Shown piece after piece: positions 27,916 through 61,295 of a DNA stretch of 64,000 nt; the first letter of the stretch is position 1; every line of letters starts with the position of its first letter. The position numbers and the translations under genes are program-made. Under the pieces are notes generated by a model. That model did no database searches. It had not been told where the DNA came from and saw only the letters and a list, made by a program, of their open reading frames with translations. The DNA is from a phage. The DNA lies in sequence record PZ296772.1. One strand, written 5' to 3'.

Positions 27916-28602
27916 ATGAAACTGTCTAAAGATACTATTGCTATTCTGAAAAACTTTGCCTCTATTAACTCCGGTATTCTGCTGAGTCAAGGTAAATTTA
28001 TTATGACTCGTGCAGTTAATGGCACTACTTATGCGGAAGCAAATATCTCTGATGAAATTGATTTTGACGTAGCACTTTATGATTTGAATAGCTTCTTAAG
28101 CATTTTGAGTCTAGTGTCTGATGATGCTGAAATTTCAATGCACACTGATGGTAATATTAAAATTGCAGATACACGTTCCACAGTTTATTGGCCTGCCGCT
28201 GACAAGAGCACTATTGTTTTTCCTAATAAGCCAATTCAATTCCCAGTGGCTTCTGTGATTACTGAAATTAAAGCCGAAGACCTTCAACAATTGCTTCGAG
28301 TTTCACGTGGTCTTCAGATTGATACAATTGCTATTACAAATAAAGATGGTAAAATTGTTATCAATGGCTATAATAAAGTTGAAGATTCAGGACTAACTCG
28401 TCCTAAGTATTCTTTGACTCTTACCGATTATGATGGTTCTAACAACTTTAACTTCGTAATCAATATGGCTAATATGAAAATCCAGCCAGGTAACTATAAA
28501 GTAATGCTGTGGGGAGCCGGTGATAAAGTTGCAGCCAAGTTTGAAAGCTCTCAAGTAAGTTATATTATTGCGATGGAAGCCGATTCTACCCACGACTTCT
28601 AA
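27916..28602 (+). CDS. 45: sliding clamp gp45
   Basis: Start moved to ATG after AAAGGAAA; 228 aa as in T4; MKLSKDTIAILKNFASINSGILL matches recalled T4 gp45. Confidence 0.85.
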   Translation: MKLSKDTIAILKNFASINSGILLSQGKFIMTRAVNGTTYAEANISDEIDFDVALYDLNSFLSILSLVSDDAEISMHTDGNIKIADTRSTVYWPAADKSTIVFPNKPIQFPVASVITEIKAEDLQQLLRVSRGLQIDTIAITNKDGKIVINGYNKVEDSGLTRPKYSLTLTDYDGSNNFNFVINMANMKIQPGNYKVMLWGAGDKVAAKFESSQVSYIIAMEADSTHDF

Positions 28603-28604
28603 GT

Positions 28605-28632
28605 CAAAGCTTTACGTTTAATGTAGTACGAT
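28605..28632 (+). promoter_or_regulatory. MotA-box-like middle promoter candidate upstream of gene 44
   Basis: caaaGCTTTA, 12 nt, TACGAT. Confidence 0.35.
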
Positions 28633-28677
28633 TATGGAGGAGAAATCCTCCAGTTTAATGATAATGAGGAAAATTAC

Positions 28678-29640
28678 ATGATTACTATCAATTCCAAAGA
28701 ACACATTCTAGAACAGAAATATCGTCCTTCTTCCATTGACGAATGTATTCTGCCTGCGTATGACCATGAAACATTCAAGTCTTTAGTATCTAAAGGAAAA
28801 CTTCCTCATATTATTTTGCACTCTCCTTCTCCTGGTACAGGTAAAACAACTGTAGCAAAAGCATTATGTAATGATATCAATGCCGAAATGATGTTCGTCA
28901 ACGGTTCTGATTGTAAGATTGATTTTGTGCGTGGCCCGTTAACTGCATTCGCTCGTTCAGTCTCAATGGAAGGCAAGCCTAAAGTTATTGTTATTGATGA
29001 ATTCGACCGTAGTGGTCTCGCCGAATCACAACGTCACCTTCGTACGTTTATGGAAGAATTCTCTAGTAACTGCTCTATTGTTATTACTGCTAACAACATC
29101 GATGGAATTATTGAACCATTACGTAGTCGTTGTCGAGTTATCGAATTCGGACGTCCAACCGAAGAAGATAAAATCTCGATGATGAAGAAAATGATTCATC
29201 GTATGGTTGAAATCTGTAAGAATGAAAATATCGAAATCGCTGATATGAAAGTTGTTGCAGCTCTGGTTAAAAAGAACTTCCCGGACTTTCGTCGTACAAT
29301 TGGTCAATTAGACCAGTACTCGTCTAAAGGTGTTCTTGATGCAGGTATTCTGTCTATCGTAACTAATGACCGTGGCACAGTCTCTGACGTTATCGAAGCA
29401 ATGAAGAATAAAGATATCAAACAGCTTCGTGCATTAGCTCCAAAATATGCTGCAGATTATTCATGGTTCATCGATAAATTAGTTTCAGAATGTTATGACC
29501 AAGTTGCACCTGGTAAAAGTATTATTTCGCTTTACGAAATTGCAGGCGAAAATAATAAGTTTCATGGACTAGCAAGTAATATTGAATTACATGTTATGTA
29601 TATGCTTCTTCAACTGACCTGCGAACTGACTTGGAAATAA
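28678..29640 (+). CDS. 44: clamp loader large subunit gp44 (AAA+)
   Basis: Walker [11 protein letters not shown], Walker [12 protein letters not shown] motif RSRCRVIEF. Confidence 0.9.
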
Positions 29641-29641
29641 T

Positions 29642-30205
29642 ATGAACTTATTTGATGATGACGTCCAGCTTAACGAGCACCAAATTGCATGGAAGTCTAA
29701 TGACGCTGATGCGATCCAAAAATGTGCTGATATGTTTAAAGAAAAACCTGAGAATGAATTCTTTAAAATCATTAATGCTATTAATGAAAAGAAACCTATG
29801 TCAATTGCTCAGGTCGACTACTCAAAATTTATGGTTGAGAACTCATTATCCCAGTTCCCAGAATGTATGCCAGCTGTTTACATGATGAACTTAGTCGGTT
29901 CTGAATTAAGTGATGAAGCGCACTTCAACTATATGATGGCGGCAATTCCGCGTGGTCGACGATTCTCTAAATGGGCTAAACTAGTAGAAGACACTTCAGA
30001 GTTACTAGTTATCAAACTGTTGATGAAACATTACACAATCAACATGAATGATGCTACCGAGTATAAGCGGCTCCTTGAAAAAAATAACAAGTTGCCAATA
30101 GTCCTTAAAGAACTGAAGGCCATGGTCACTGATGAATTTCTCAAAGAAGTTACCAAAAACGTGAAAGAACAAAAACAATTTAAAAAATTAGCATTGGAAT
30201 GGTAA
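29642..30205 (+). CDS. 62: clamp loader small subunit gp62
   Basis: 187 aa immediately downstream of 44, as in T4. Confidence 0.75.
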
Positions 30206-30657: not shown

Positions 30658-33369
30658 ATGAAAGAATTTTACTTAACGGTTGAACAGATTGGTGATTCAA
30701 TTTTTGAACGTTACATCGATTCTAATGGCCGTGAACGTACTCGTGAAGTAGAATATAAACCATCACTGTTTGCTCATTGTCCAGAAAGTCAGGCTACGAA
30801 ATATTTCGATATCTACGGTAAGCCGTGTACTCGTAAGTTGTTCGCTAATATGCGTGATGCCTCCCAATGGATTAAACGCATGGAAGATATCGGACTTGAA
30901 GCACTTGGCATGGACGATTTCAAATTGGCGTATTTGTCTGACACTTATAACTATGAAATCAAATACGACCATACAAAAATTCGTGTGGCTAACTTCGACA
31001 TCGAAGTAACATCTCCGGATGGGTTCCCTGAGCCGTCACAAGCAAAACATCCAATTGATGCTATCACCCATTATGACTCAATTGATGACAGGTTTTATGT
31101 ATTTGACCTTTTGAATTCTCCATACGGTAATGTGGAAGAATGGTCTATCGAAATTGCGGCTAAGCTTCAAGAACAAGGTGGTGATGAAGTTCCATCCGAA
31201 ATTATCGATAAAATCATTTATATGCCGTTCGATAACGAAAAAGAATTGTTGATGGAATATCTCAACTTCTGGCAACAGAAAACTCCTGTCATTTTGACTG
31301 GATGGAACGTTGAGTCATTTGATATTCCATATGTGTATAACCGAATCAAGAATATTTTTGGCGAATCAACTGCGAAACGTTTATCACCACATCGTAAAAC
31401 TCGTGTTAAAGTTATCGAAAACATGTATGGTTCTCGTGAAATCATTACATTGTTCGGTATCTCTGTTCTTGATTACATTGACCTTTACAAAAAATTCTCT
31501 TTTACCAATCAACCGTCATATTCTCTGGATTACATTTCAGAATTTGAATTGAACGTTGGTAAACTGAAATACGACGGCCCTATTTCTAAGCTTCGTGAAA
31601 GCAATCACCAACGATATATTTCTTATAACATTATCGACGTGTATCGTGTATTGCAAATTGATGCTAAGCGTCAGTTCATCAACTTGAGCTTGGACATGGG
31701 TTATTATGCTAAAATTCAGATTCAATCCGTGTTCAGTCCAATTAAAACTTGGGACGCTATTATTTTTAATAGCCTTAAAGAACAAAACAAGGTGATTCCA
31801 CAAGGTCGTTCGCATCCAGTTCAACCTTACCCAGGTGCTTTTGTTAAGGAACCTATTCCAAATCGATACAAATATGTTATGAGCTTCGACCTCACATCTC
31901 TGTATCCAAGTATTATTCGCCAAGTGAATATTAGTCCGGAAACAATAGCAGGAACGTTTAAAGTAGCTCCATTGCATGATTATATTAACGCTGTTGCTGA
32001 ACGTCCTTCTGATGTGTACAGTTGTTCTCCTAACGGCATGATGTATTATAAAGACCGTGATGGTGTAGTTCCAACTGAAATCACTAAGGTCTTTAATCAA
32101 CGTAAAGAACATAAAGGTTACATGCTTGCAGCTCAACGTAATGGTGAAATAATTAAAGAGGCATTGCATAATCCTAATTTTTCTGATGACGAACCGTTAG
32201 ATGTTGATTATCGTTTCGACTTCAGCGATGAGATTAAAGAAAAGATTAAAAAGTTGTCTGCTAAATCTCTTAATGAAATGTTGTTTAGAGCTCAACGTAC
32301 TGAAGTTGCAGGTATGACTGCACAAATTAACCGTAAATTGCTTATCAACTCACTTTATGGTGCACTTGGCAACGTTTGGTTCCGTTATTACGATTTGCGT
32401 AATGCTACTGCAATCACAACATTCGGGCAAATGGCTTTACAGTGGATTGAACGTAAAGTCAATGAATATCTGAATGAAGTTTGTGGTACAGAAGGCGAAG
32501 CTTTCGTTCTATATGGTGATACAGACTCCATTTACGTATCTGCAGATAAAATTATTGATAAGGTTGGTGAATCTAAATTCCGTGATACCAACCATTGGGT
32601 AGACTTCTTAGATAAGTTCGCTCGTGAACGTATGGAACCTGCTATTGATAGAGGTTTCCGTGAAATGTGCGAATACATGAATAATAAGCAACATTTGATG
32701 TTCATGGACCGAGAAGCTATCGCTGGACCTCCGCTTGGTTCTAAAGGTATTGGCGGATTTTGGACTGGTAAGAAACGTTATGCATTAAACGTGTGGGATA
32801 TGGAAGGCACTCGTTACGCTGAGCCTAAACTCAAAATCATGGGTCTAGAGACTCAGAAATCTTCGACTCCTAAAGCAGTACAGAAAGCTCTTAAGGAATG
32901 TATTCGTCGTATGCTTCAGGAAGGTGAAGAATCATTACAAGAATATTTTAAAGAGTTTGAAAAAGAATTCCGTCAATTGAATTATATTAGCATCGCGTCG
33001 GTATCTTCTGCGAATAACATCGCTAAATATGATGTTGGTGGATTCCCTGGTCCCAAATGCCCGTTCCATATTCGTGGAATTCTGACGTATAACCGGGCTA
33101 TCAAAGGTAATATCGATGCACCACAAGTTGTAGAAGGTGAAAAAGTATATGTTCTGCCTTTACGTGAAGGAAACCCATTCGGTGATAAATGTATCGCATG
33201 GCCTTCTGGTACTGAAATCACAGATTTAATTAAAGACGACGTACTTCATTGGATGGACTACACTGTTCTCCTTGAGAAGACATTTATTAAACCACTTGAA
33301 GGATTCACATCAGCAGCGAAACTCGATTACGAGAAGAAAGCATCTCTGTTCGATATGTTCGATTTTTGA
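30658..33369 (+). CDS. 43: family B DNA polymerase gp43 (RB69-type)
   Basis: 903 aa; exo motifs FDIEV, YNIIDV; pol motifs DLTSLYPSII, LYGDTDSIYV; N-terminus MKEFYLTVEQIGDSIFERYIDSNGRERTREVEYKP matches recalled RB69 gp43. Confidence 0.95.
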   Translation: MKEFYLTVEQIGDSIFERYIDSNGRERTREVEYKPSLFAHCPESQATKYFDIYGKPCTRKLFANMRDASQWIKRMEDIGLEALGMDDFKLAYLSDTYNYEIKYDHTKIRVANFDIEVTSPDGFPEPSQAKHPIDAITHYDSIDDRFYVFDLLNSPYGNVEEWSIEIAAKLQEQGGDEVPSEIIDKIIYMPFDNEKELLMEYLNFWQQKTPVILTGWNVESFDIPYVYNRIKNIFGESTAKRLSPHRKTRVKVIENMYGSREIITLFGISVLDYIDLYKKFSFTNQPSYSLDYISEFELNVGKLKYDGPISKLRESNHQRYISYNIIDVYRVLQIDAKRQFINLSLDMGYYAKIQIQSVFSPIKTWDAIIFNSLKEQNKVIPQGRSHPVQPYPGAFVKEPIPNRYKYVMSFDLTSLYPSIIRQVNISPETIAGTFKVAPLHDYINAVAERPSDVYSCSPNGMMYYKDRDGVVPTEITKVFNQRKEHKGYMLAAQRNGEIIKEALHNPNFSDDEPLDVDYRFDFSDEIKEKIKKLSAKSLNEMLFRAQRTEVAGMTAQINRKLLINSLYGALGNVWFRYYDLRNATAITTFGQMALQWIERKVNEYLNEVCGTEGEAFVLYGDTDSIYVSADKIIDKVGESKFRDTNHWVDFLDKFARERMEPAIDRGFREMCEYMNNKQHLMFMDREAIAGPPLGSKGIGGFWTGKKRYALNVWDMEGTRYAEPKLKIMGLETQKSSTPKAVQKALKECIRRMLQEGEESLQEYFKEFEKEFRQLNYISIASVSSANNIAKYDVGGFPGPKCPFHIRGILTYNRAIKGNIDAPQVVEGEKVYVLPLREGNPFGDKCIAWPSGTEITDLIKDDVLHWMDYTVLLEKTFIKPLEGFTSAAKLDYEKKASLFDMFDF

Positions 33370-33409
33370 TATAATACCATGGACGGTAAACTAATTAAAT
33401 GAGAGAAAT

Positions 33410-34045
33410 ATGAAAACTACTCCTATTACTATCGCTATTGACGCAATCATAAAACAAGCTTCTTCTTTGGCCGCTATGGCCAAAGTAATTAGTCAAAACC
33501 CTGCTCGTTATAATGCTATTCTAGAAACTCTTCGACGCCCGGGACTTAGTAATTATGAAAGCCGAGTAATTATTACAGGTGTTGGTAAGAATGCTAATAT
33601 TGCAACTAAAGCTTCTGAGACATTTGCTTCACTCGGTATCCCGAGTATGTACTTGAACACCGGGCACTATTCTCACGGTGATGCAGGATTTATTGCGCCT
33701 AATGATGTATTAGTTCACATCAGTCGTTCTGGTAAGACTGAAGAAATGATAGGTGTTGCTAAACATCTTCGTATGATTCGTCCTCAGGTTAAACAGATTC
33801 TGTTACATTGTAACCCTGACATTCCACAAGAATACGAAGCTCTTTTTGATTATACGTTCTGTACCGGTATCGCGGTAGAAGTTGACGAGAACTCTTTAGC
33901 TCCGACAATGTCAACCACATTGTTGTTAGCGCTTATCGATACGTTCGCTATCAACCTTTCGTCTGAGCGTGGATTTACCTCTAATGACTTCCTTAAGTTC
34001 CACCCTGGTGGTGCACTAGGTGCCATGTTACGAGGCGAACAATGA
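33410..34045 (+). CDS. SIS-domain sugar-phosphate isomerase (arabinose-5-phosphate isomerase-like, no CBS domains)
   Basis: SIS motifs GVGKNANIATKA, HISRSGKTEE and C-terminal FHPGGALG typical of KdsD/GutQ/KpsF isomerases. Confidence 0.65.
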   Translation: MKTTPITIAIDAIIKQASSLAAMAKVISQNPARYNAILETLRRPGLSNYESRVIITGVGKNANIATKASETFASLGIPSMYLNTGHYSHGDAGFIAPNDVLVHISRSGKTEEMIGVAKHLRMIRPQVKQILLHCNPDIPQEYEALFDYTFCTGIAVEVDENSLAPTMSTTLLLALIDTFAINLSSERGFTSNDFLKFHPGGALGAMLRGEQ

Positions 34046-34185
34046 AAGCAATAACAATAGGACTTTTACTATTGATGCTTGTCATGACTATCTACTGGAG
34101 CTTAACGGCTCCAGTAATGATTCCAACACTTGTAATTGGATGGATTATGATTGGTCTACAGGCAAAGTATGAATGCTTTAACTAG
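34042..34185 (+). CDS. small hydrophobic protein (below ORF-track threshold)
   Basis: 47-aa ORF MKAITIGLLLLMLVMTIYWSLTAPVMIPTLVIGWIMIGL..., two transmembrane-like segments, coupled start. Confidence 0.3.
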   Translation: MKAITIGLLLLMLVMTIYWSLTAPVMIPTLVIGWIMIGLQAKYECFN

Positions 34186-34226
34186 AATAGTGTACAATAC
34201 ATCTACTTACCAATGAGGACCACAAC

Positions 34227-35912
34227 ATGAAAAAAGCTGTTATTCTTGGTGCTGGACTGGCAACTCGTTTGTATCCAATAACGCATCATATTCCAAAAGT
34301 TCTTGTGAACTATAAACAAGACACTATTCTGAGCAATTTGTATACAATTTATTCTGACCTTGGCGCAGATGAAATTATTGTAGTAGTTCATTCAAAATTT
34401 GCTGAAACTGTTCGAGCTTATTGTGAGCAAGAAGGGTTCAATGTGACTATTCGTACAGTTGATGAAGCGTATGGTTCTGCTTATGCTCTTGCTAAATTAC
34501 ACAAAGATTTAGACGGCCATAATGTAATTGTTAACTGGTGTGATATTATTCCTGATTTTGGTTCATGGTCTTGGAATGTTAACGCAATCTATGTTAAGGG
34601 TGACGAATGTCGGTATAATTTCGACGGTGAAAATATCACTAACGTAGGTTCAACAGGTGGTAATGTTGTAGGAATTTATCAGTTCAAAGACTGGGAATTC
34701 TATATGGGTTCTACTGATGAGGAAATTCATGAATACTGCAAAGGACGCGATTTCGTAGAATTCCTTTACAGCGGCGCATTCAATAAATCAGAGCTTATGA
34801 ATCTAATTGATTTAGGTGATATGCCTAAACTTGAAAAAGCTCATGAAGTTCGTGAACTTAATCGTAGTTTTAATGCAGTTGAAATTGGTGAAGAAACTGT
34901 AACTAAATTCGCATTAACCGAACAGGGTCGAGCTCTTCAGAAAGATGAGATTTCATGGTATCTTAAAGTGAAATCAGATTCAGTTCCTCAGTTAGTTTCT
35001 GTAAATGAAAATAACTTTGAAATGGAACGTATTAAAGGTAAGCCGGCATTTGAATATATTAAATCCAAATCAAGTCTTGCTCGTCCACAAATTGTTGATG
35101 CAATTTTAGATGCACTAAAATTCAGCACAGACACGTATTTTGTAAGTCCTGAAACTGTTCGTCGTGATTTCACTAAAGAATTCTATACGAAAGTTATTGA
35201 TCGTTGTGAAAGCATTCAGCCATTGATTGATTCATTTGGTAAAATCACACACGTGAACTACACTAAGATTGGACGTCTGAAGCCAATGCTGAAACAAGCT
35301 TTAGAACACCTTATTCGTTATCATAACCGTTCTCAGGGACAGTACTCTGTTATTCATGGTGACCCGAACTTCAGTAATACTATGATTACTGATAACGGCG
35401 AAGTCAAGTTTATCGACCCTCGTGGATATTTTGGCGAAACCAAGATTTACGGGCCAAAATTGTATGATGAAGCTAAAGTGCTTTATGCTGTTTCAGGTTA
35501 TGATGAATTCAATGCTAATCCGACCTGGGGACAGTTTACTATTGATGAAACAACTTGTAATGTGACTATTAACATCAATCCATTAATTTACAAATATGGA
35601 AAGATGAGTTCGTTTAACGAGTATCATCATTTGGCTGTAGCAATTATCTGGATTGCATTAGGTGGTTATTTCAAGAATAATCCACTTAAAGCGGTAGCCG
35701 CATATTATAAAGGTATGGAACTTCTGACTAAGCAATTACGTAACATGGGCCGTGTACTTCAAGATGGCTCTATTAGTTATGACGTAGCAGAACCTGTAAC
35801 GGCTACTCTGATTACAAAAAATCCTGGTAAATGGGTACTAACTGATAAAGAAACTGGTGTTTCCTATCGTCCAATCGGTGGCGATATCACTCATCAATGG
35901 GAACGAATCTAA
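34227..35912 (+). CDS. bifunctional sugar-1-phosphate nucleotidyltransferase / APH-type anomeric sugar kinase
   Basis: N-terminus ILGAGLATRLYPIT (NTP-transferase G-x-G-T-R-L); C-terminus kinase catalytic loop VIHGDPNFSNTMI and metal-binding FIDPRG. Confidence 0.6.
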   Translation: MKKAVILGAGLATRLYPITHHIPKVLVNYKQDTILSNLYTIYSDLGADEIIVVVHSKFAETVRAYCEQEGFNVTIRTVDEAYGSAYALAKLHKDLDGHNVIVNWCDIIPDFGSWSWNVNAIYVKGDECRYNFDGENITNVGSTGGNVVGIYQFKDWEFYMGSTDEEIHEYCKGRDFVEFLYSGAFNKSELMNLIDLGDMPKLEKAHEVRELNRSFNAVEIGEETVTKFALTEQGRALQKDEISWYLKVKSDSVPQLVSVNENNFEMERIKGKPAFEYIKSKSSLARPQIVDAILDALKFSTDTYFVSPETVRRDFTKEFYTKVIDRCESIQPLIDSFGKITHVNYTKIGRLKPMLKQALEHLIRYHNRSQGQYSVIHGDPNFSNTMITDNGEVKFIDPRGYFGETKIYGPKLYDEAKVLYAVSGYDEFNANPTWGQFTIDETTCNVTININPLIYKYGKMSSFNEYHHLAVAIIWIALGGYFKNNPLKAVAAYYKGMELLTKQLRNMGRVLQDGSISYDVAEPVTATLITKNPGKWVLTDKETGVSYRPIGGDITHQWERI

Positions 35913-36298
35913 TGCATCGTGTAGAAAACATGCTTAATCTTTGTTTTGATGTCGACGATTGTATAACAGAGTGGAATAACAATCGTGATTACGTGAACTT
36001 CAAGCCAGACGTCGAAATGGTGACTGCCATTAATGCCCTGTATGATGCAGGGCATACCATAACGCTTTACACTGCTCGTGGTATGAAGTCAGTAGGTCCT
36101 GGACGTATAGCAATTGACATTCTACCGAGTCTGATTCAGAACTTGGAAAACATTGGTTTGAAGTACCATAATTTGCTAACACATAAACCAGTATATGATT
36201 GGATTATCGACGACAAAGCTATGCGTCCTGACGAATTCAAAGCTCTTATGAATAAAGGCGAATTCGAAACATTTAAATCATATAAACCGAACCTATAA
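35912..36298 (+). CDS. HAD-like phosphatase (small)
   Basis: Start at ATG overlapping upstream stop; motif I CFDVDDCIT (DxDx-). Confidence 0.4.
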   Translation: MHRVENMLNLCFDVDDCITEWNNNRDYVNFKPDVEMVTAINALYDAGHTITLYTARGMKSVGPGRIAIDILPSLIQNLENIGLKYHNLLTHKPVYDWIIDDKAMRPDEFKALMNKGEFETFKSYKPNL

Positions 36299-36346
36299 TA
36301 ATTTAAGTAAGACCTGCAAAAAAACCATCGCATCAATTAACGTGAG

Positions 36347-37516
36347 ATGCAAAAAATGAATACTTTTAAAATCGGAACGAATTTTGATTTAGCTCTTCTT
36401 GATAAAATCGTAGAGCTCAATAAAACTTATCCTAATAGCTTGATAAACGAAGTGTACGGCTCTACAAGAGAAATGGCTTTTGTAGCAGCCAGACCTGATT
36501 TTAGGCTTCCTGACGTTGACAAAAAGATGTTAGAAGATTACGTTAAACGTTGTAACGAATTAGGTATTTGCTTTAACTATACACTCAACACGATAAATCC
36601 TGGTTCAAAAAGAGAACTAGTTGAGTGGAAGAAGAAAGCTATTCAGGATTATGTTCAGTATCTTTGGTCAATAGGCGTATGGCGTATTACTATCGCTAAC
36701 CCTGTTGTTATGGAAATTGTTCGTGAAGTAAATAAAGACATTGAGATTGAAGTTTCAACAATTCTACATGTTGATGCTGTAACTCAAATCAAATACTTGC
36801 ATGACCAATATAATATCAAAAAGGTCTGCTGTGGAATTCATAAGAACCGTTCAGTTTCTTTCCTGAAGCGTGCAGCAGAGTTTTGCAATAAGAACAATAT
36901 AATATTTGAAGTTCTTGTAAATGAGTTCTGTTCTAATGCTGGTAAAGGGTATACAACACATTGTAGCTATCGTGACTCTTGCTATATTTTCCATAGTACT
37001 GATGTTACAGCTGATGATGCTAAATCCTTAAATGGATATCCAATGCAGCACTGTATTAAAGCTCGTGATACAGACCCATTTAACTGGTTGAGAACTCGTT
37101 TTGTTCGTCCTCAAGATTTGAAACTTTATAATGATATTGGTATCACTCAATTCAAAGTTTCAGGACGTACAGGTAGCACAGACTACATTTTGAAAGTTCT
37201 TGAAGCATACGCTTCTGAAAAGTTTGAAGGTAATTTGTTAGAACTGTGGAAGCCTTTAGAGACTATTTTCACTCTTGAAAACGAAACCGAGTTTTCACAT
37301 ACAGTAAATATTGAAACCTCTTTGTTAGATGGCTTTTTAGAAAAAAGGTGGTTCAGACATCCAGATTTCGATTGTGCTAATGAAATCTGTGGGACGACGT
37401 GTACATATTGTGAAAGATATTATAAACGTCAGTTATCTAAAAACGGGTTAGCAGAAAACTCTATATCTATTATTGATATAACTAACTCTGATGACGCTTT
37501 GAGGTACCCGGAATGA
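36347..37516 (+). CDS. peptidase-U32-family-like protein (putative Fe-S enzyme)
   Basis: Central region resembles recalled U32 pattern (FNYTLNTI...GVWRITIANPVVMEIVRE...IEVSTILHV...NRSVSFLKRAAE); multiple Cys (CSNAGKG..HCSYRDSC, CANEICGTTCTYC). Confidence 0.35.
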   Translation: MQKMNTFKIGTNFDLALLDKIVELNKTYPNSLINEVYGSTREMAFVAARPDFRLPDVDKKMLEDYVKRCNELGICFNYTLNTINPGSKRELVEWKKKAIQDYVQYLWSIGVWRITIANPVVMEIVREVNKDIEIEVSTILHVDAVTQIKYLHDQYNIKKVCCGIHKNRSVSFLKRAAEFCNKNNIIFEVLVNEFCSNAGKGYTTHCSYRDSCYIFHSTDVTADDAKSLNGYPMQHCIKARDTDPFNWLRTRFVRPQDLKLYNDIGITQFKVSGRTGSTDYILKVLEAYASEKFEGNLLELWKPLETIFTLENETEFSHTVNIETSLLDGFLEKRWFRHPDFDCANEICGTTCTYCERYYKRQLSKNGLAENSISIIDITNSDDALRYPE

Positions 37517-37752
37517 TTTCTAGAAAAACTTTTAATCACCAACTTAATGAAGAGATTTTGACTACGAAACTGAACACTAACGAACAAATTCTTAAAAAGG
37601 CCCTTATGGGCCTGTTTGAAACCAAAGCGGCTAAAGTGATTAAAGAACCTGTTCAATTGGAATACTACGCTGATGCATTTCTTCACAGTGTTCTTGGAAG
37701 TATCGATGCTGAAGCTTTACGGTATACCAACATTGCCAAGAAATTCAAATAA
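37513..37752 (+). CDS. hypothetical protein
   Basis: 79 aa, coupled start. Confidence 0.4.
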   Translation: MISRKTFNHQLNEEILTTKLNTNEQILKKALMGLFETKAAKVIKEPVQLEYYADAFLHSVLGSIDAEALRYTNIAKKFK

Positions 37753-37775
37753 GCTTTACGAATCGAGTATATAAT
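37749..37775 (+). promoter_or_regulatory. MotA-box-like middle promoter candidate upstream of gene 42
   Basis: ataaGCTTTA, 11 nt, TATAAT. Confidence 0.4.
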
Positions 37776-37794
37776 AAATTGTATTGAGGTAAAC

Positions 37795-38511
37795 ATGGGA
37801 AAACATAACACAATGAAATATATCAAAGCCGCAGATTTTCAAGCCGCATTTAAAGCAGTCAATCGTGAAATTTTAGAAAACCCAGAATTCGTAACTGATT
37901 CTCGTATTGGACGTTGTAATGAAATTGGGTCTATGACAGTAGTTGTTGACACTCCATCATCATTCAAAATGACCGACCCACGTATTAACCGCATCTCTTA
38001 TGAATATGCTGAAGACTTCTGGAAGTTTATGATTTCTGGTGGTACTGACGCAGAAGAAGCGTTTAAGGCATACCCTAATGTCGCTAAATTTATTTCTAAA
38101 CCCAAATCAGACGCTTTGCCGGCGAACTTCAACACTTTCTATGGTCCTCGCATTGCGGCCCAATTACCAGCTCTTCTAAAAGAACTTAAAGAGAAGCCTA
38201 ACTCTCGAAGAGTTGTGTTCCAAATTCTAGAAAGTTCTGATCAGGCTTTGCTTGATTCGGACGAAACGCTTGAATATCCATGTACTGACTCAGTGACTTA
38301 TTATATTCGTGATGGTAAGCTTTATACCCACTGTCATATGCGTTCTCAGAACTGTGCTGTTGTTATGCAGTTGGATTTTTATCTCCAAGGAAAATTACTT
38401 CATTATATCGCTAACGAATGCGGTGTAGAAGTAGGTGATTATACTCATACCATGGTAAGTGCCCATGTGTTTGAACGTGATTTTGATTATGTTAAAGGAT
38501 TCCTTGACTAA
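37795..38511 (+). CDS. 42: dCMP hydroxymethylase (divergent)
   Basis: Thymidylate-synthase fold: nucleophile YPCTD, then HMRSQNCAVVMQLDF with Asp where TS has the PFNIAS Asn; T4 gene 42 position. Confidence 0.65.
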   Translation: MGKHNTMKYIKAADFQAAFKAVNREILENPEFVTDSRIGRCNEIGSMTVVVDTPSSFKMTDPRINRISYEYAEDFWKFMISGGTDAEEAFKAYPNVAKFISKPKSDALPANFNTFYGPRIAAQLPALLKELKEKPNSRRVVFQILESSDQALLDSDETLEYPCTDSVTYYIRDGKLYTHCHMRSQNCAVVMQLDFYLQGKLLHYIANECGVEVGDYTHTMVSAHVFERDFDYVKGFLD

Positions 38512-39410
38512 TGGCTATTTTCCGCGTACCTATCTTGAGTATGCGGTCTTATGAAACTGGACAGTATGCTATCCTTAAGGATGGCAACTTCCAACTTCAT
38601 TTGCACCGTGCTAATCCAGGTGATGTGATTACATATCCACGTAATGCATCTGATATTAAAGAATGTGAACGTCTTTTCCCGGAATTTAAGTTTGTTCCAT
38701 TATGGTATAAAGATAACGCGTATAACACTCGTAAATATTTCTGGTCTGAAAATGAATTTGTGGTTGATTCATTAATTGCTTATTATGATTGTGATTTTCT
38801 AATCACAGATATCACTGGATATGATGGCGCTTTTGACGTAGAATTCAATTTCAATATCACTGCAGACCCTAATAAACCACGTTTTTATATTGATGAATTC
38901 TTAAAAACCGACATGTTGTCTGTTAATCGTTCAATCCAAACAACTGTGTTGAATAAACGTCAAAAGGAAGTGCTGGTTAACGCTGGTGCCGATGGTAATA
39001 AGATTATCGTAACGCAGAAAGTTATACGTCCTTCCGTCATGCAGCGTCTTGTAGGTGATTTGGCTCCTATTCATCTAGATGGTATTTTTCATCCATTTCG
39101 AATTAGTGACCCATGCTATCGTTTTGAACAAGTTGTTGAATGCGCAATTCAATTAGGTCAACCGCTTTATATAACTGATCCAAATAATAGTTTCGACAGA
39201 AATAAGTATCCTGAAGAAGCGCTGATTCGAATTTTTAATCCAACTAAAACTGAGTACTATCAAATTCTTAAAGGACGTCCGAAGATTCAATATTTCGAAA
39301 ATCCTGAAGAAGTATTCCATCCAGGTCTTGGTGAGTTCATCTACTTTAATGCTTTAATTTCTTCACCGTATAATATACCTAAATACGAAGATGTCGTAAT
39401 CGAGGAATAA
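38511..39410 (+). CDS. hypothetical protein occupying the T4 beta-glucosyltransferase position
   Basis: 299 aa, coupled to the gp42 stop; no recognisable similarity to recalled T4 beta-gt. Confidence 0.45.
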   Translation: MAIFRVPILSMRSYETGQYAILKDGNFQLHLHRANPGDVITYPRNASDIKECERLFPEFKFVPLWYKDNAYNTRKYFWSENEFVVDSLIAYYDCDFLITDITGYDGAFDVEFNFNITADPNKPRFYIDEFLKTDMLSVNRSIQTTVLNKRQKEVLVNAGADGNKIIVTQKVIRPSVMQRLVGDLAPIHLDGIFHPFRISDPCYRFEQVVECAIQLGQPLYITDPNNSFDRNKYPEEALIRIFNPTKTEYYQILKGRPKIQYFENPEEVFHPGLGEFIYFNALISSPYNIPKYEDVVIEE

Positions 39411-39411
39411 A

Positions 39412-39960
39412 ATGGCTAAAATTATTTTAGTAGATGGCCCGGATAATGCCGGTAAAACAACTTTCATTAATGACGTAATGGAAATTAGTGAAAGATATGT
39501 AAAGATTGATTTCCCTAAACGAACAATTGATGGACGTTTCGATGTTAAGTCTCGAAATGAAGTTGGCTGTTTCGAAACGATGTTGAATTATTTAGACCCT
39601 ACTAAGATTTATCTGTTAGACCGTGGATATATTAGTAACTGGGTTTATGGACGTATTCGACAAGATGCGGACTCAGTTCTTGACGTTTATGAACAGGATT
39701 ATGTTCGTCTTTGCCAAAACCATGATGTGTTCACAATTATTTTAACACGTAACGAAATGACTGAAAGTTTTGAAGACGACCTTATTACTTTGTCTTCATT
39801 AGGTTTTAATACAGTCATTTCATATTTTGAAGAGTTTGCAATTCATAACAAAATCCAAACGTATCAATTACTTAATCATGATGGTGCTAACAAAGTTATA
39901 GGATTTAATGCAAGCGAACGTAATAATTTGATTACAGAAATCATCAAATGGGCTCGTTAA
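39412..39960 (+). CDS. P-loop nucleoside/nucleotide kinase-like protein
   Basis: Walker A VDGPDNAGKTT; LLDRGYISNWVYG resembling the dNK/TMPK DR(Y) motif. Confidence 0.5.
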   Translation: MAKIILVDGPDNAGKTTFINDVMEISERYVKIDFPKRTIDGRFDVKSRNEVGCFETMLNYLDPTKIYLLDRGYISNWVYGRIRQDADSVLDVYEQDYVRLCQNHDVFTIILTRNEMTESFEDDLITLSSLGFNTVISYFEEFAIHNKIQTYQLLNHDGANKVIGFNASERNNLITEIIKWAR

Positions 39961-40058
39961 GAGCCATTTAAAGTTTTAAATGCTGTATAACCCTTAGTAT
40001 ATAATCATCTTATCTTTTAAACATGAGTAAAATATAATGATGCCTATGGAAAAATACA

Positions 40059-41231
40059 ATGTCTGATTTAAAATCTCGTCTGATTAAAGCTTCTACTTCT
40101 AAAATGACTGCAGACTTGACTAAGTCTAAGCTGTTTAATAATCGTGATGAAGTCCCTACTCGTATTCCGATGTTGAATATTGCACTAGGTGGTGCTCTGA
40201 ATGCAGGATTGCAATCAGGCTTGACTATTTTTGCTGCTCCTTCTAAACACTTTAAAACGTTGTTTGGGCTGACTATGGTTGCAGCGTATATGAAGAAATA
40301 TAAAGATGCAATCTGTTTGTTTTATGACTCGGAATTCGGTGCTTCAGAATCTTATTTTCGTTCAATGGGTGTCGATTTAGACCGTGTAGTTCATACACCA
40401 ATTCAGTCTGTCGAACAACTTAAAGTCGATATGACTAATCAGCTTGACGCTATTGAACGCGGTGATAAAGTTATTATCTTTATCGATTCAATCGGTAATA
40501 CTGCATCTAAGAAAGAAACCGAAGATGCGTTGAACGAGAAAGTTGTAGGTGATATGTCTCGTGCTAAGGCACTTAAATCTCTTTTCCGTATTGTGACCCC
40601 GTATCTGACTATTAAAGATATTCCGTGTGTTGCAATTAACCATACCGCAATGGAAATTGGCGGATTGTATCCTAAAGAGATTATGGGCGGTGGTACAGGT
40701 ATTCTTTATTCTGCCAACACAGTATTTTTTATCTCTAAACGTCAGGTTAAAGAAGGTACAGAATTGACCGGTTATGACTTCACGTTGAAAGCAGAAAAAT
40801 CTCGCACCGTTAAAGAAAAATCTACTTTCCCAATCACGGTTAATTTTGATGGTGGTATCGACCCATTCAGTGGCTTGCTAGAAATGGCAACTGAAATCGG
40901 TTTTGTGGTTAAGCCTAAAGCCGGGTGGTATGCTCGTGAATTCCTTGACGAAGAAACAGGTGAAATGATTCGTGAAGAAAAATCATGGCGTGCTAAAGCT
41001 ACTGATTGTGTAGAATTCTGGGGACCTTTGTTTAAACACAAACCTTTCCGAGATGCAATTGAAACCAAATATAAACTAGGTGCTATCTCTTCTATTAAAG
41101 AAGTTGATGACGCTGTTAACGACCTTATTAATTGCAAAGCAACAACTAAGGTTCCAGTTAAAACTTCTGATGCTCCATCTGCAGCAGATATAGAAAACGA
41201 CCTTGACGAAATGGAAGATTTCGATGAATAA
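40059..41231 (+). CDS. uvsX: RecA-like recombinase UvsX
   Basis: 390 aa; MSDLKSRLIKASTSK, Walker A, FDGGIDPFSGLLEMA, WYAREFLDEETGEMIREEKSWRAK; near-identical to recalled T4 UvsX. Confidence 0.9.
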   Translation: MSDLKSRLIKASTSKMTADLTKSKLFNNRDEVPTRIPMLNIALGGALNAGLQSGLTIFAAPSKHFKTLFGLTMVAAYMKKYKDAICLFYDSEFGASESYFRSMGVDLDRVVHTPIQSVEQLKVDMTNQLDAIERGDKVIIFIDSIGNTASKKETEDALNEKVVGDMSRAKALKSLFRIVTPYLTIKDIPCVAINHTAMEIGGLYPKEIMGGGTGILYSANTVFFISKRQVKEGTELTGYDFTLKAEKSRTVKEKSTFPITVNFDGGIDPFSGLLEMATEIGFVVKPKAGWYAREFLDEETGEMIREEKSWRAKATDCVEFWGPLFKHKPFRDAIETKYKLGAISSIKEVDDAVNDLINCKATTKVPVKTSDAPSAADIENDLDEMEDFDE

Positions 41232-60194: not shown

Positions 60195-61295
60195 ATGAAA
60201 GTTATGTTTATCCCATCTCGTGCAGTCCCATTTAATCCTGACCGTGTACAAGGTGGACTTGAAGCAGTACATTTAAATGTGTTGAAATATCTTGTGTCCA
60301 TCGGTGCTGATATTGATTATATCGGCTTTGATAATGACACGTTTGGTGACTGGAAAGTTACACACCATCCTGTTGGTCATCTGACTAAATTCAGTCTAGG
60401 TATGAGTTATACTATGGCTCGTAAGATTGTTGAACTAGCCGGCATCCATGAATACGATTTTGTTGTTACTATGGAACCGACTAAACTAACCGTCCAAGCA
60501 ATTAAAGACGCAGGTCTCTCTAAAGTTCATAAGAATTTTATGGCTACGCCATTTGAACCGGTGTCTCGTGGTATTGTTCAAATTTGGGATCAGACTATCC
60601 AGATTCACAAGAACGGTGGGAAGAGCTATGCTCCTACTAAAGCCTTCCGTGAATTTGAACGTAAATATTGTCATATGACTTCAGCTCTTACTGACAAAAT
60701 TGATTATGACTACTGGCGTGAAAATCCATTATTTGAACCTGATGACTACCCGGTTATTTGTTTGAATGAAAAACCTGAAGTTCTTCCGGCAACTGATTTG
60801 ATTATTAGTGCTCAACGTTATGACACTAAGATGCGTCGCACTGATGTTGCTCTTGAAGCAATTAAAGCACTAGGCGAAAATGGTATTGGTTATTGTCCAA
60901 GCAAATGGGCACCACCAGCTAAATATCCTGTTATTATTGATGCTCCACACAGTGAAATCATGGAACGTCTTAAAACAGCTAAAGCACTTATTAATACATG
61001 TCCTGACACAGGTACGGTAGAGAATAGTTCTATTGAAGCCATCTCTAAAGGTGTCCCTGTAATCCAGTTAGTTTTTAAGGATTATCCTCATGCGACATTC
61101 GAATACGACCCAGATACTGTGCGTGTAGAAATTGATTCCTCTACTCCTAAGAAAGAAGTAGTTGCGCTTTACACAAAAGCTGTATTAGAATTCACTGACA
61201 CATACAAAGCTCGAGTTAAACGTGCTGAAGCAGTATGGAAGAAGTATAATCGAGATGCAGTTGTTGCGATGTGGGATAAAATCTTCACAGCGTAA
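60195..61295 (+). CDS. GT-B-fold glycosyltransferase (candidate DNA hmC glycosyl/arabinosyl transferase)
   Basis: 366 aa; N-terminal MKVMFIPSRAVPFNPDRVQGGLEAVHLNV and C-terminal ENSSIEAISKGVPVIQ resembling the GT4/GT-B donor-binding motif; between 39 and rIIA. Confidence 0.55.
   Translation: MKVMFIPSRAVPFNPDRVQGGLEAVHLNVLKYLVSIGADIDYIGFDNDTFGDWKVTHHPVGHLTKFSLGMSYTMARKIVELAGIHEYDFVVTMEPTKLTVQAIKDAGLSKVHKNFMATPFEPVSRGIVQIWDQTIQIHKNGGKSYAPTKAFREFERKYCHMTSALTDKIDYDYWRENPLFEPDDYPVICLNEKPEVLPATDLIISAQRYDTKMRRTDVALEAIKALGENGIGYCPSKWAPPAKYPVIIDAPHSEIMERLKTAKALINTCPDTGTVENSSIEAISKGVPVIQLVFKDYPHATFEYDPDTVRVEIDSSTPKKEVVALYTKAVLEFTDTYKARVKRAEAVWKKYNRDAVVAMWDKIFTA

What the first reader, a model, noticed from the sequence alone, without database searches (positions are those of the whole stretch)
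34227..35912. Fused nucleotidyltransferase and anomeric kinase in one 561-aa polypeptide
The N-terminal ~230 aa carry the NTP-transferase signature ILGAGLATRLYPIT. The C-terminal ~260 aa carry a protein-kinase-like catalytic loop (VIHGDPNFSNTMI) and metal-binding FIDPRG, as in APH/choline-kinase/NahK/AmgK-type sugar 1-kinases. This is a salvage-style design that makes an NDP-sugar in two steps from free sugar, unusual in a phage and suggestive of a sugar the host does not supply in activated form.
Basis: inference. Interest (0 to 1): 0.75.

Follow-up and report, generated by a model that had tools for sequence, protein, structure and literature searches.

The report
Known phage UDP-arabinose-making fusion enzyme
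This gene is a real fusion of a sugar kinase and a sugar-nucleotide-forming enzyme, but it is the already described enzyme that RB69-like phages use to make the activated arabinose they attach to their DNA, and it starts from a host sugar phosphate rather than from free sugar.

Summary

The gene is already known. The window is a Mosigvirus. The protein is 100% identical to phage Bas47 QXV75156.1 and about 99% identical to the corrected RB69 ORF53_52c (gp52:53). Published work assigns its homologue AfhE of phage HY126 two activities: D-arabinose-5-phosphate 1-kinase and UDP-D-arabinofuranose pyrophosphorylase.

The 'salvage from free sugar' reading is not supported. The gene sits between a KdsD-like isomerase and an overlapping HAD phosphatase. 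The pathway runs Ru5P, Ara5P, Ara-1,5-P2, Ara-1-P, UDP-Araf, which is the logic of ADP-heptose synthesis built from different folds. I found the same isomerase/phosphatase linkage in phages, giant-virus MAGs (as single four-domain proteins), bacteria and archaea. The fusion is not rare: 369 phage records encode a homologue.

Verdict: correct reading of the domains, partly wrong pathway, no novelty.

The parts
34227..35912 (+). Whole ORF: 561-aa bifunctional enzyme (AfhE / RB69 gp52:53 orthologue), stop codon included
   Evidence: 100% identical to Bas47 QXV75156.1, PTK, LH01 and JN02 proteins. 97.7% nt identity to RB69 28094-29780, with the single 1-nt gap that is the known RB69 sequencing error (PMC6024577).
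34227..34856 (+). N-terminal sugar-1-phosphate nucleotidyltransferase domain (about residues 1-210)
34248..34298 (+). NTP-binding signature G8-A-G10-L-A-T-R14 ... K24
   Evidence: G10, R14 and K24 are invariant in 41 homologues down to 28% identity.
34809..34820 (+). D195-L-G197-D198 acidic motif of the nucleotidyltransferase domain. Inferred to be the metal/sugar-phosphate site by analogy with the D-x-G motif of RmlA-type enzymes.
   Evidence: D195, G197, D198 and K201 are invariant. The functional assignment is inference from knowledge of the family.
34857..35750 (+). C-terminal APH/choline-kinase-like kinase domain (about residues 211-508)
35355..35378 (+). Kinase catalytic loop H377-G-D379-P-N-F-S-N384
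   Evidence: H377, G378, D379, S383 and N384 are invariant in 41 homologues. The motif has the HGDxxxSN form of the APH/ChoK catalytic loop (family knowledge).
35415..35426 (+). Metal-binding D397-P-R-G400 (equivalent to the DFG motif)
   Evidence: I396, D397, P398, R399 and G400 are invariant.
35751..35909 (+). C-terminal tail (residues 509-561). Conserved in the T4-like phage proteins and absent from homologues that end near residue 505. Function unknown.
   Evidence: Alignment columns 701-770. pLDDT 59-82 in this stretch. Cellular and giant-virus matches stop at residues 497-508.
33410..34045 (+). Upstream partner: SIS-domain D-arabinose-5-phosphate isomerase (KdsD/GutQ-like, without the CBS domains)
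   Evidence: Pfam SIS E 9.6e-10. NCBIfam KpsF/GutQ E 8.9e-32 and KdsD E 3.9e-30, both below the full-length cutoffs. PHROG 5670 'arabinose 5-phosphate isomerase' E 2.6e-116.
35897..36298 (+). Downstream partner: small HAD phosphatase (AfhF / RB69 gp51 orthologue). Its start overlaps the 3' end of the fusion gene (ATG at 35897, or the TAATG at 35912).
   Evidence: TIGR01689 capsule-biosynthesis phosphatase E 2e-13. The same small-HAD family lies directly downstream of the fusion in 27 viral and 43 cellular loci.
37795..38511 (+). Thymidylate-synthase homologue = 5-hydroxy-dCMP synthase, which makes the acceptor base
   Evidence: Pfam Thymidylat_synt E 2.4e-15. 235/238 identical to PDB 9iqc/9ir2. 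Function from PMC13326640.
38511..39410 (+). 299-aa glycosyltransferase candidate (RB69 gp46:47, 'arabinosyltransferase 1'), the consumer of the NDP-arabinose
   Evidence: PHROG 3891 E 8e-156, no Pfam hit. Co-occurs with the fusion in all 29 viral loci of at least 37% identity. Assignment from PMC13326640.
39412..39960 (+). Thymidylate-kinase-like nucleotide kinase of the module
   Evidence: PHROG 761 E 3.4e-44. Co-occurrence.
60195..61295 (+). Second DNA arabinosyltransferase (RB69 ORF003c orthologue), lying between the topoisomerase gene and rIIA
   Evidence: 357/366 identical to RB69p003. PMC6024577 and PMC13326640.

Best explanation
The ORF encodes the bifunctional D-arabinose-5-phosphate 1-kinase / UDP-D-arabinofuranose pyrophosphorylase of the phage pathway that arabinosylates 5-hydroxycytosine in DNA. 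It is the orthologue of AfhE of phage HY126, of RB69 gp52:53 and of DLP3 gp82.

The pathway works as follows. Ribulose-5-phosphate is isomerised to D-arabinose-5-phosphate, either by the phage SIS enzyme (33410-34045) or by host KdsD/GutQ. The C-terminal kinase domain of this protein uses ATP to phosphorylate the anomeric C1 hydroxyl, giving arabinofuranose-1,5-bisphosphate. The translationally coupled HAD phosphatase (35897-36298) removes the 5-phosphate. The N-terminal nucleotidyltransferase domain then condenses arabinofuranose-1-phosphate with UTP to give UDP-D-Araf. Two DNA glycosyltransferases (38511-39410 and 60195-61295) transfer this sugar onto 5-hydroxycytosine in phage DNA.

Shown here: both folds, the invariant catalytic residues, identity to the published proteins, and the conserved isomerase/phosphatase/ThyA/GT neighbourhood. 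Taken from the literature: the substrates, UDP as the carrier, and the order kinase before phosphatase. My inference: starting from the 5-phosphate locks the sugar in the furanose ring, because O5 is blocked. This explains why the pathway does not go through free arabinose.
For: Identity to published proteins. The protein is 100% identical to the Bas47, PTK, LH01 and JN02 proteins. It is about 99% identical to the frameshift-corrected RB69 ORF53_52c. The neighbouring ThyA homologue is 235/238 identical to PDB 9iqc/9ir2. I take that entry to be the HY126 5hodCMP synthase, so HY126 is a near-identical Mosigvirus.

Context. The gene order is SIS isomerase, fusion, overlapping HAD, U32, ThyA homologue, GT, Tmk-like kinase. 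All 29 viral loci of at least 37% identity keep HAD, the ThyA homologue and the GT, and 19 of the 29 keep SIS. Giant-virus MAGs encode the same four activities as HAD-SIS-NTase-kinase proteins of 912-929 aa. In 80 bacterial and archaeal loci the same small-HAD family is nearby in 63 and SIS in 41.

Literature. AfhE is reported to have Ara5P kinase and UDP-D-Ara pyrophosphorylase activities, and AfhF is reported as an Mg-dependent phosphatase acting on Ara-1,5-P2 (PMC13326640 citing He et al. 2026). RB69 DNA carries beta-D-Araf-(1-3)-alpha-D-Araf on 5-hydroxy-dC. The Thanatos homologue TH1_060 (54% identical) is essential for phage propagation (PMC12838424).
Against: I could not read the primary biochemical papers (He et al. 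2026 and Mahler et al. 2025 are not held). The substrate order therefore rests on a secondary summary. Table 1 of that same paper still lists the alternative order (phosphatase makes free Ara, kinase makes Ara-1-P), which contradicts its own text.

No sequence of HY126 AfhE was available, so orthology to the assayed protein is inferred through the neighbouring gene. Purified TH1_060 showed no pyrophosphorylase activity with xylose-1-phosphate and any NTP. That is expected for a wrong, pyranose substrate, but it is not positive evidence. Ten of the 29 close viral loci lack an SIS gene within 7 kb. This requires host Ara5P or a gene located elsewhere in those genomes.
Confidence: 0.85

Rival explanations
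1. This is the first reader's model, also listed in Table 1 of Lee et al. The HAD phosphatase first makes free D-arabinose from Ara5P, or the sugar is scavenged. The kinase domain then phosphorylates free arabinose at C1 like NahK/AmgK. The N-terminal domain makes the NDP-sugar. That would be a two-step salvage-type activation.
For: APH-fold anomeric kinases that have been characterised (NahK, AmgK) act on free sugars (family knowledge). Table 1 of PMC13326640 lists 'phosphorylates Ara to Araf1p' and 'dephosphorylates Araf5p to Ara'. The same set of enzymes would serve either order.
Against: The text of the same paper reports experiments on AfhE/AfhF showing Ara5P going to Ara-1,5-P2 and then Ara-1-P. 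Free D-arabinose is mainly pyranose, whereas the DNA sugar is furanose. An SIS isomerase that makes the 5-phosphate is linked to the fusion in 45 of 63 viral and 41 of 80 cellular loci. It is fused into the same polypeptide in giant viruses, and that would be pointless for scavenging free sugar. Foldseek hits reported for the DLP3 homologue of the HAD partner (gp81) include the heptose-1,7-bisphosphate phosphatase GmhB.
Confidence: 0.1
2. The protein is a choline-type or other non-sugar activation enzyme: a fused LicA/LicC-like choline kinase and CTP:phosphocholine cytidylyltransferase making a CDP-alcohol.
Against: Identity to these enzymes is only 12-20%, a superfamily-level resemblance. RmlA, GalU and MurU score almost equally. 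There are no choline-pathway genes nearby. The neighbours are a sugar-phosphate isomerase, a phosphatase, glycosyltransferases and a dCMP-modifying enzyme. The DNA of identical or near-identical phages carries arabinose.
Confidence: 0.02
3. The protein is itself the DNA glycosyltransferase, as first considered for RB69 ORF053c and for Thanatos TH1_060, because the N-terminal domain has a GT-A-like fold.
For: [quoted passage not shown]
Against: The GxGxR...K pyrophosphorylase signature is present and invariant. All top structural matches are nucleotidyltransferases, not transferases acting on acceptors. It scored poorly against glycosyltransferase HMMs. No xylosyl transfer to DNA, dCMP or dCTP was seen. 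Separate GT-B transferases are encoded in the window.
Confidence: 0.02

Closest known systems
AfhE of Escherichia phage HY126 (He et al., Nat Chem Biol 2026, as summarised in PMC13326640); same family as RB69 gp52:53 (ORF53_52c) and Acinetobacter phage DLP3 gp82
   Same: The architecture is the same (N-terminal nucleotidyltransferase, C-terminal kinase, about 560 aa). The neighbours are the same (SIS isomerase, HAD AfhF, ThyA-like 5hodCMP synthase, GTs). The window protein is 100% identical to the Bas47 protein and about 99% identical to corrected RB69 ORF53_52c.
   Different: No functional difference is evident. There are only a few substitutions relative to RB69 (H92Y, S182G, G183S, Q233H, I454V). 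The HY126 sequence itself could not be compared.
ADP-heptose pathway GmhA / HldE / GmhB
   Same: The logic is identical: an SIS isomerase makes a sugar omega-phosphate, a kinase adds the anomeric phosphate, a HAD phosphatase removes the distal phosphate, and a nucleotidyltransferase activates the sugar. In both pathways the kinase and the nucleotidyltransferase are fused in one protein, and the phosphatase step falls between their two reactions.
   Different: The folds are different. HldE uses a PfkB/ribokinase-like kinase and a cytidylyltransferase-like adenylyltransferase (family knowledge). Here the folds are an APH/ChoK-like kinase and an RmlA/LicC-like nucleotidyltransferase. The domain order is reversed, and the sugar is a pentofuranose carried on UDP.
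AmgK / MurU (and NahK + GlmU) salvage pairs
   Different: Those enzymes are normally separate proteins acting on free amino sugars, with no isomerase or phosphatase. Here the two are fused, the substrate is a sugar 5-phosphate, and the HAD step is obligatory.
LicA / LicC of Streptococcus pneumoniae
   Same: These are the best individual matches for each domain.
   Different: They act on a non-sugar substrate (choline), use CTP, and are separate genes. Identity is only 12-20%.
FKP (L-fucokinase / GDP-fucose pyrophosphorylase)
   Same: It is a bifunctional protein with an N-terminal pyrophosphorylase and a C-terminal anomeric kinase in one chain.
   Different: The FKP kinase is of the GHMP type (family knowledge). 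It salvages free fucose and has no bisphosphate intermediate.

Membership tests
AfhE-type bifunctional Ara5P 1-kinase / UDP-Araf pyrophosphorylase (phage arabinosyl-5-hydroxycytosine pathway) | N-terminal sugar-1-phosphate nucleotidyltransferase domain with the GxGxR...K signature | tested here: met
AfhE-type bifunctional Ara5P 1-kinase / UDP-Araf pyrophosphorylase (phage arabinosyl-5-hydroxycytosine pathway) | C-terminal APH/ChoK-fold kinase domain with an intact catalytic loop and metal-binding Asp, in the same polypeptide | tested here: met
AfhE-type bifunctional Ara5P 1-kinase / UDP-Araf pyrophosphorylase (phage arabinosyl-5-hydroxycytosine pathway) | Gene neighbourhood with an Ara5P isomerase, a HAD phosphatase (AfhF), a ThyA-like 5hodCMP synthase and DNA arabinosyltransferases | tested here: met
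   Conserved in 29/29 close viral loci for HAD, ThyA homologue and GT, and in 19/29 for SIS.
AfhE-type bifunctional Ara5P 1-kinase / UDP-Araf pyrophosphorylase (phage arabinosyl-5-hydroxycytosine pathway) | Sequence orthology to a protein from a phage with chemically demonstrated arabinosyl-5hoC DNA | tested here: met
   100% identical to Bas47 QXV75156.1. About 99% identical to corrected RB69 gp52:53. Bas47 and RB69 DNA chemistry is reported in PMC13326640.
AfhE-type bifunctional Ara5P 1-kinase / UDP-Araf pyrophosphorylase (phage arabinosyl-5-hydroxycytosine pathway) | Direct sequence identity to the biochemically assayed HY126 AfhE | tested here: inconclusive
The neighbouring ThyA homologue is 235/238 identical to PDB 9iqc/9ir2, presumed to be from HY126. 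No PDB chain of AfhE was found.
AfhE-type bifunctional Ara5P 1-kinase / UDP-Araf pyrophosphorylase (phage arabinosyl-5-hydroxycytosine pathway) | Enzymatic activities: ATP-dependent C1 phosphorylation of Ara5P, and UTP + Araf-1-P giving UDP-Araf | not testable with these tools
   Only the literature summary is available.
Free-sugar salvage pairs (AmgK/MurU, NahK/GlmU type) | APH-fold anomeric kinase plus a sugar-1-P nucleotidyltransferase | tested here: met
   This holds at the level of the fold only. NahK and AmgK are not among the listed top matches.
Free-sugar salvage pairs (AmgK/MurU, NahK/GlmU type) | A two-enzyme route that needs no sugar-phosphate isomerase or phosphatase partner | tested here: not met
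   SIS and HAD partners are adjacent in the window. They are conserved or fused across viral and cellular loci.
Free-sugar salvage pairs (AmgK/MurU, NahK/GlmU type) | The kinase substrate is the free, unphosphorylated sugar | not testable with these tools
   The literature summary says Ara5P is the substrate.
HldE (ADP-heptose) bifunctional kinase/adenylyltransferase | Pathway logic: isomerase, anomeric kinase, HAD phosphatase, nucleotidyltransferase | tested here: met
   Gene context together with the literature.
HldE (ADP-heptose) bifunctional kinase/adenylyltransferase | PfkB/ribokinase-fold kinase domain and cytidylyltransferase-fold adenylyltransferase domain | tested here: not met

The most novel reading that the evidence does not exclude
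The phage enzyme may be one offshoot of a much wider and largely uncharacterised module: a sugar-phosphate isomerase, an NTase-kinase fusion and a small HAD phosphatase. The module occurs in bacteria (for example Trichodesmium erythraeum IMS101, Prochlorococcus, Polynucleobacter, Sutterella/Dakarella and Helicobacter/Campylobacter relatives). It also occurs in archaea (Micrarchaeota, Thermoplasmata, Methanobrevibacter) and in giant viruses, where all four activities are fused into proteins of about 920 aa. There it would make NDP-D-arabinofuranose, or other NDP-sugars via 1,omega-bisphosphate intermediates, for glycans unrelated to DNA modification. Variants with a ribulose-phosphate epimerase or a cupin isomerase in place of SIS would extend the idea to other sugars.
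Probability: 0.5. Interest if true: 0.5.

Novelty: already known. Interest (0 to 1): 0.22.

Why it matters
The enzyme supplies the donor sugar for arabinosyl-5-hydroxycytosine. This DNA hypermodification shields Mosigvirus and many other T4-like phages from restriction and CRISPR nucleases, and it sensitises them to type IV systems. That matters for phage therapy and for phage engineering.

This window adds nothing new on that subject: the gene, its role and its chemistry have been published (2018, 2025, 2026). There are two practical points. First, databases still label the gene 'hypothetical', 'GlmU' or 'mannose-1-phosphate guanylyltransferase'. Second, the neighbouring 'dCMP hydroxymethylase' is really a 5-hydroxy-dCMP synthase. 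The wider cellular and giant-virus distribution of the module, seen here in passing, is the part that may still be open.

Tried and rejected
- The primary papers (He et al. 2026, doi 10.1038/s41589-026-02150-z; Mahler et al. 2025, doi 10.1016/j.chom.2025.06.005) are not in the held library. A search for 'AfhE' and 'HY126' returned only the NAR 2026 paper.
- A PDB sequence search with the fusion found no solved structure of the protein itself. The best hit was LicC at E 2e-5.
- The promoter/terminator scan of 33300-40100 found no more sites than shuffled sequence (22 against 25 expected; 3 against 3.6). It gives no information on the operon structure.
- Removing the base at RB69 record position 29116 to recreate the corrected ORF gave a short mis-framed patch (residues 219-222). 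The 99% figure therefore comes from the residues outside that patch together with the 97.7% nt identity.
- A PDB sequence search with the U32 ORF found nothing.
- I rejected the choline-activation and glycosyltransferase readings (see the rival explanations).
- I found no sequence-only test that would separate Ara5P from free arabinose as the kinase substrate.
Full report
1. What is in the sequence.

Window 34227-35912 (+) is one uninterrupted ATG-initiated ORF of 561 codons. A GAGGA ribosome-binding site lies about 8 nt upstream.

Pfam recognises the N-terminal third as NTP_transferase (E 8.5e-10, above the curated cutoff). It gives only sub-threshold kinase-like hits for residues 344-409. 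NCBIfam gives only partial, below-cutoff matches to sugar-1-phosphate nucleotidyltransferases. PHROGs places the whole protein in phrog_4098, 'unknown function', and residues 211-517 in a kinase-only family, phrog_21938.

2. Structure.

Invariant columns of the alignment include the pyrophosphorylase signature G10/R14/K24 and the acidic D195-x-G197-D198 motif. They also include the kinase residues K227, E241, H377-G-D379, S383-N384 and D397-P-R-G400. Both halves therefore look catalytically competent.

Residues 509-561 form a lower-confidence tail (pLDDT 59-82). This tail is absent from homologues that end near residue 505.

3. Where the window comes from.

The 6.7-kb segment 33300-39990 is 99.7% identical to Escherichia phage PTK and 99.3% identical to phage AlbertHofmann (Bas47). 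It is 97-98% identical to about 150 other Mosigvirus genomes. The protein is 100% identical to Bas47 QXV75156.1, which its depositors named 'putative enzyme involved in UDP-arabinose biosynthesis', and to the PTK, LH01 and JN02 proteins.

Against RB69 the gene is 97.7% identical at the nucleotide level, with a single 1-nt gap. That gap is the sequencing error that split the gene into RB69 ORF053c and ORF052c. Thomas et al. corrected it in 2018, showing a single 561-residue, 63.9-kDa product that they called ORF53_52c (PMC6024577).

4. Neighbourhood.

Downstream of DNA polymerase (30658-33369) lie, all on the + strand and in this order:
- a KdsD/GutQ-like SIS isomerase (33410-34045);
- a 47-codon hydrophobic ORF;
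- the fusion gene;
- a 133-aa HAD-type phosphatase whose start overlaps the end of the fusion gene (ATG at 35897, or the TAATG at 35912);
- a U32-family protein;
- a 79-aa ORF;
- a thymidylate-synthase homologue;
- a 299-aa protein with no Pfam match;
- a thymidylate-kinase-like protein;
- uvsX.

The ThyA homologue is 235/238 identical to PDB 9iqc/9ir2. I take that entry to be the flavin-containing 5-hydroxy-dCMP synthase of phage HY126 crystallised by He et al. This is an inference, because the tool gives only the depositor's molecule name ('Thymidylate synthase'), not the source organism. A 366-aa ORF at 60195-61295, between the topoisomerase gene and rIIA, is 98% identical to RB69 ORF003c, the second arabinosyltransferase.

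5. What the literature already says.

RB69 DNA was first reported to carry arabinose in 2018, and ORF53_52c plus ORF055c were proposed to make UDP-arabinose (PMC6024577). Lee et al. (NAR 2026, PMC13326640) showed that the base is 5-hydroxycytosine, not hydroxymethylcytosine. They found that it carries beta-D-Araf-(1-3)-alpha-D-Araf.

Citing He et al. (Nat Chem Biol 2026) and Mahler et al. (Cell Host Microbe 2025), they state three things. [quoted passage not shown] AfhF is an Mg-dependent phosphatase that converts Ara-1,5-P2 to Ara-1-P. RB69 gp52:53 and DLP3 gp82 share this architecture.

Table 1 of the same paper still lists the older order (phosphatase first, kinase on free arabinose), so the paper is internally inconsistent on this point. 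The Shewanella phage Thanatos homologue TH1_060 (54% identical, P0030) is essential for propagation. It showed no activity on xylose-1-phosphate (PMC12838424). [quoted passage not shown] I could not read He et al. or Mahler et al. directly.

6. Independent test of the pathway logic.

The disputed point is whether the kinase sees free sugar or a sugar phosphate. I therefore asked which genes travel with the fusion.

Viral contigs (63 loci). All 29 loci with at least 37% identity carry the small HAD, the ThyA homologue and the 299-aa GT downstream. Nineteen of these also carry SIS upstream. The other ten form a group at 42-44% identity with none within 7 kb. More distant phage-like contigs keep SIS immediately upstream. 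One has a T4 beta-glucosyltransferase-like gene two ORFs downstream of the fusion.

Giant-virus MAGs. These encode either a HAD-SIS protein next to the fusion or a single HAD-SIS-NTase-kinase protein of 912-929 aa. The same four-domain order is seen in P0084, P0088, P0092 and a eukaryote-derived transcript, P0091. P0084 lies between a MutS-HNH gene and RNA-polymerase subunit genes, which is a giant-virus-like context.

Species genomes. Eighty bacterial and archaeal loci encode relatives at 24-35% identity. An HMM built from the window HAD and five cellular neighbours finds the same small-HAD family within 7 kb in 63 of the 80 loci, and directly downstream on the same strand in 43. SIS is present in 41.

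A sugar-phosphate isomerase and a phosphatase that are this tightly linked to the fusion, and sometimes fused to it, argue against a free-sugar salvage design. They fit the isomerase, kinase, phosphatase, nucleotidyltransferase sequence. Gene context does not by itself fix the order of kinase and phosphatase. That rests on the cited biochemistry and on my inference that a 5-phosphate forces the furanose ring that is found on the DNA.

7. Comparison with known systems.

Functionally this is the ADP-heptose logic (GmhA, HldE, GmhB) rebuilt from unrelated folds. The bifunctional protein catalyses steps 2 and 4, and a separate HAD enzyme catalyses step 3. Structurally each domain resembles the AmgK/MurU and LicA/LicC pairs, but only at superfamily level (12-21% identity). 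It is a member of the AfhE family by architecture, catalytic residues, context and identity to the Bas47 and RB69 proteins. It is not a member of the HldE family, because the folds differ. It does not behave like a two-enzyme salvage pair, because the partner requirement is not met.

8. Frequency.

tblastn finds a homologue in 369 of 50,697 phage records, 364 of them full-length. The hosts include Escherichia, Acinetobacter, Klebsiella, Vibrio, Shigella, Serratia, Enterobacter, Proteus and Yersinia. The gene is therefore common among T4-like phages, although it is mostly annotated 'hypothetical protein' or mis-annotated 'GlmU'.

9. Verdict.

Novelty: already known. Interest is low for this locus. 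The breadth of the module outside phages is the only part that may deserve further work.

Noticed in passing
window 36347-37516 (+): A U32 'peptidase'-family protein (Pfam E 7e-11; weak UbiU hit, E 9e-4) sits inside the modification module. It is present in 15 of the 29 close viral loci. The U32 family includes the O2-independent hydroxylases UbiU/UbiV, TrhP and RlhA, and RlhA makes 5-hydroxycytidine (family knowledge). The phage 5hodCMP synthase is reported to use O2. This gene could therefore be an anaerobic route to 5-hydroxycytosine for a gut phage. Lee et al. label it only 'sugar or heterocycle reductase'.
   Followed up: partly
L047, L048, L058, L059 (giant-virus MAG contigs); P0084 on L002 8001-10781: Single proteins of 912-929 aa carry HAD, SIS, nucleotidyltransferase and kinase domains in that order. 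P0084 lies between MutS-HNH and RNA polymerase Rpb2/Rpb10 genes, which is a giant-virus-like context. No ThyA homologue or DNA GT is nearby, so the product probably serves another glycan.
   Followed up: partly
L135 (Trichodesmium erythraeum NC_008312), L104, L099, L129, L087 and 75 other cellular loci: Bacterial and archaeal relatives at 24-35% identity keep the same gene order: SIS, fusion, overlapping small HAD of about 125-150 aa with a D-x-D-G-T/V motif. In Dakarella (L087) a ribulose-phosphate-epimerase-like ORF precedes the fusion and a cupin-isomerase-like ORF follows the HAD, in place of SIS. This assignment was made by eye from the N-terminal sequences. Other homologues carry a fused C-terminal cupin (P0106).
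   Followed up: partly
L024-L030, L034, L039, L052 (phages at 42-44% identity; KIT01/Bp7/VR5-like and Klebsiella phages): These phages keep the fusion, HAD, ThyA homologue, GT and Tmk-like genes but have no SIS isomerase within 7 kb. They may rely on host KdsD/GutQ for arabinose-5-phosphate.
   Followed up: no
L035 451-1605, L044 5598-6797 (and L046): The SIS ORF upstream of the fusion continues in frame into a GIY-YIG/NUMOD3 (SegE-like) homing-endonuclease domain. This gives ORFs of 385-401 aa that combine an isomerase with an endonuclease.
   Followed up: no
window 37795-38511 (+): This gene is annotated in relatives as 'dCMP hydroxymethylase' or 'thymidylate synthase'. It is 235/238 identical to PDB 9iqc/9ir2. 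According to PMC13326640 it is a flavin-dependent 5-hydroxy-dCMP synthase, so the phage's modified base is 5-hydroxycytosine, not 5-hydroxymethylcytosine.
   Followed up: yes
window 34042-34185 (+): A 47-codon strongly hydrophobic ORF lies between SIS and the fusion gene. Its ATG overlaps the SIS stop codon (ATGA). It is annotated as bas47_0152. The RB69 record annotates a shorter ORF (RB69p054) in the corresponding SIS-fusion gap. Function unknown.
   Followed up: no
window 38511-39410 (+); literature on Thanatos TH1_063: The homologue of this 299-aa GT-like protein in phage Thanatos was reported to form UDP-xylose from xylose-1-P and UTP. The fusion homologue TH1_060 did not (PMC12838424). 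This is odd for a glycosyltransferase and remains unexplained. It may be a reverse or side reaction.
   Followed up: no
L061 9210-10397: In a 278-kb phage-like contig the SIS-fusion pair is followed, after a 230-aa ORF, by a protein matching T4 beta-glucosyltransferase (PF09198, E 3e-12). This suggests the NDP-sugar module has been combined with a different class of DNA glycosyltransferase.
   Followed up: no
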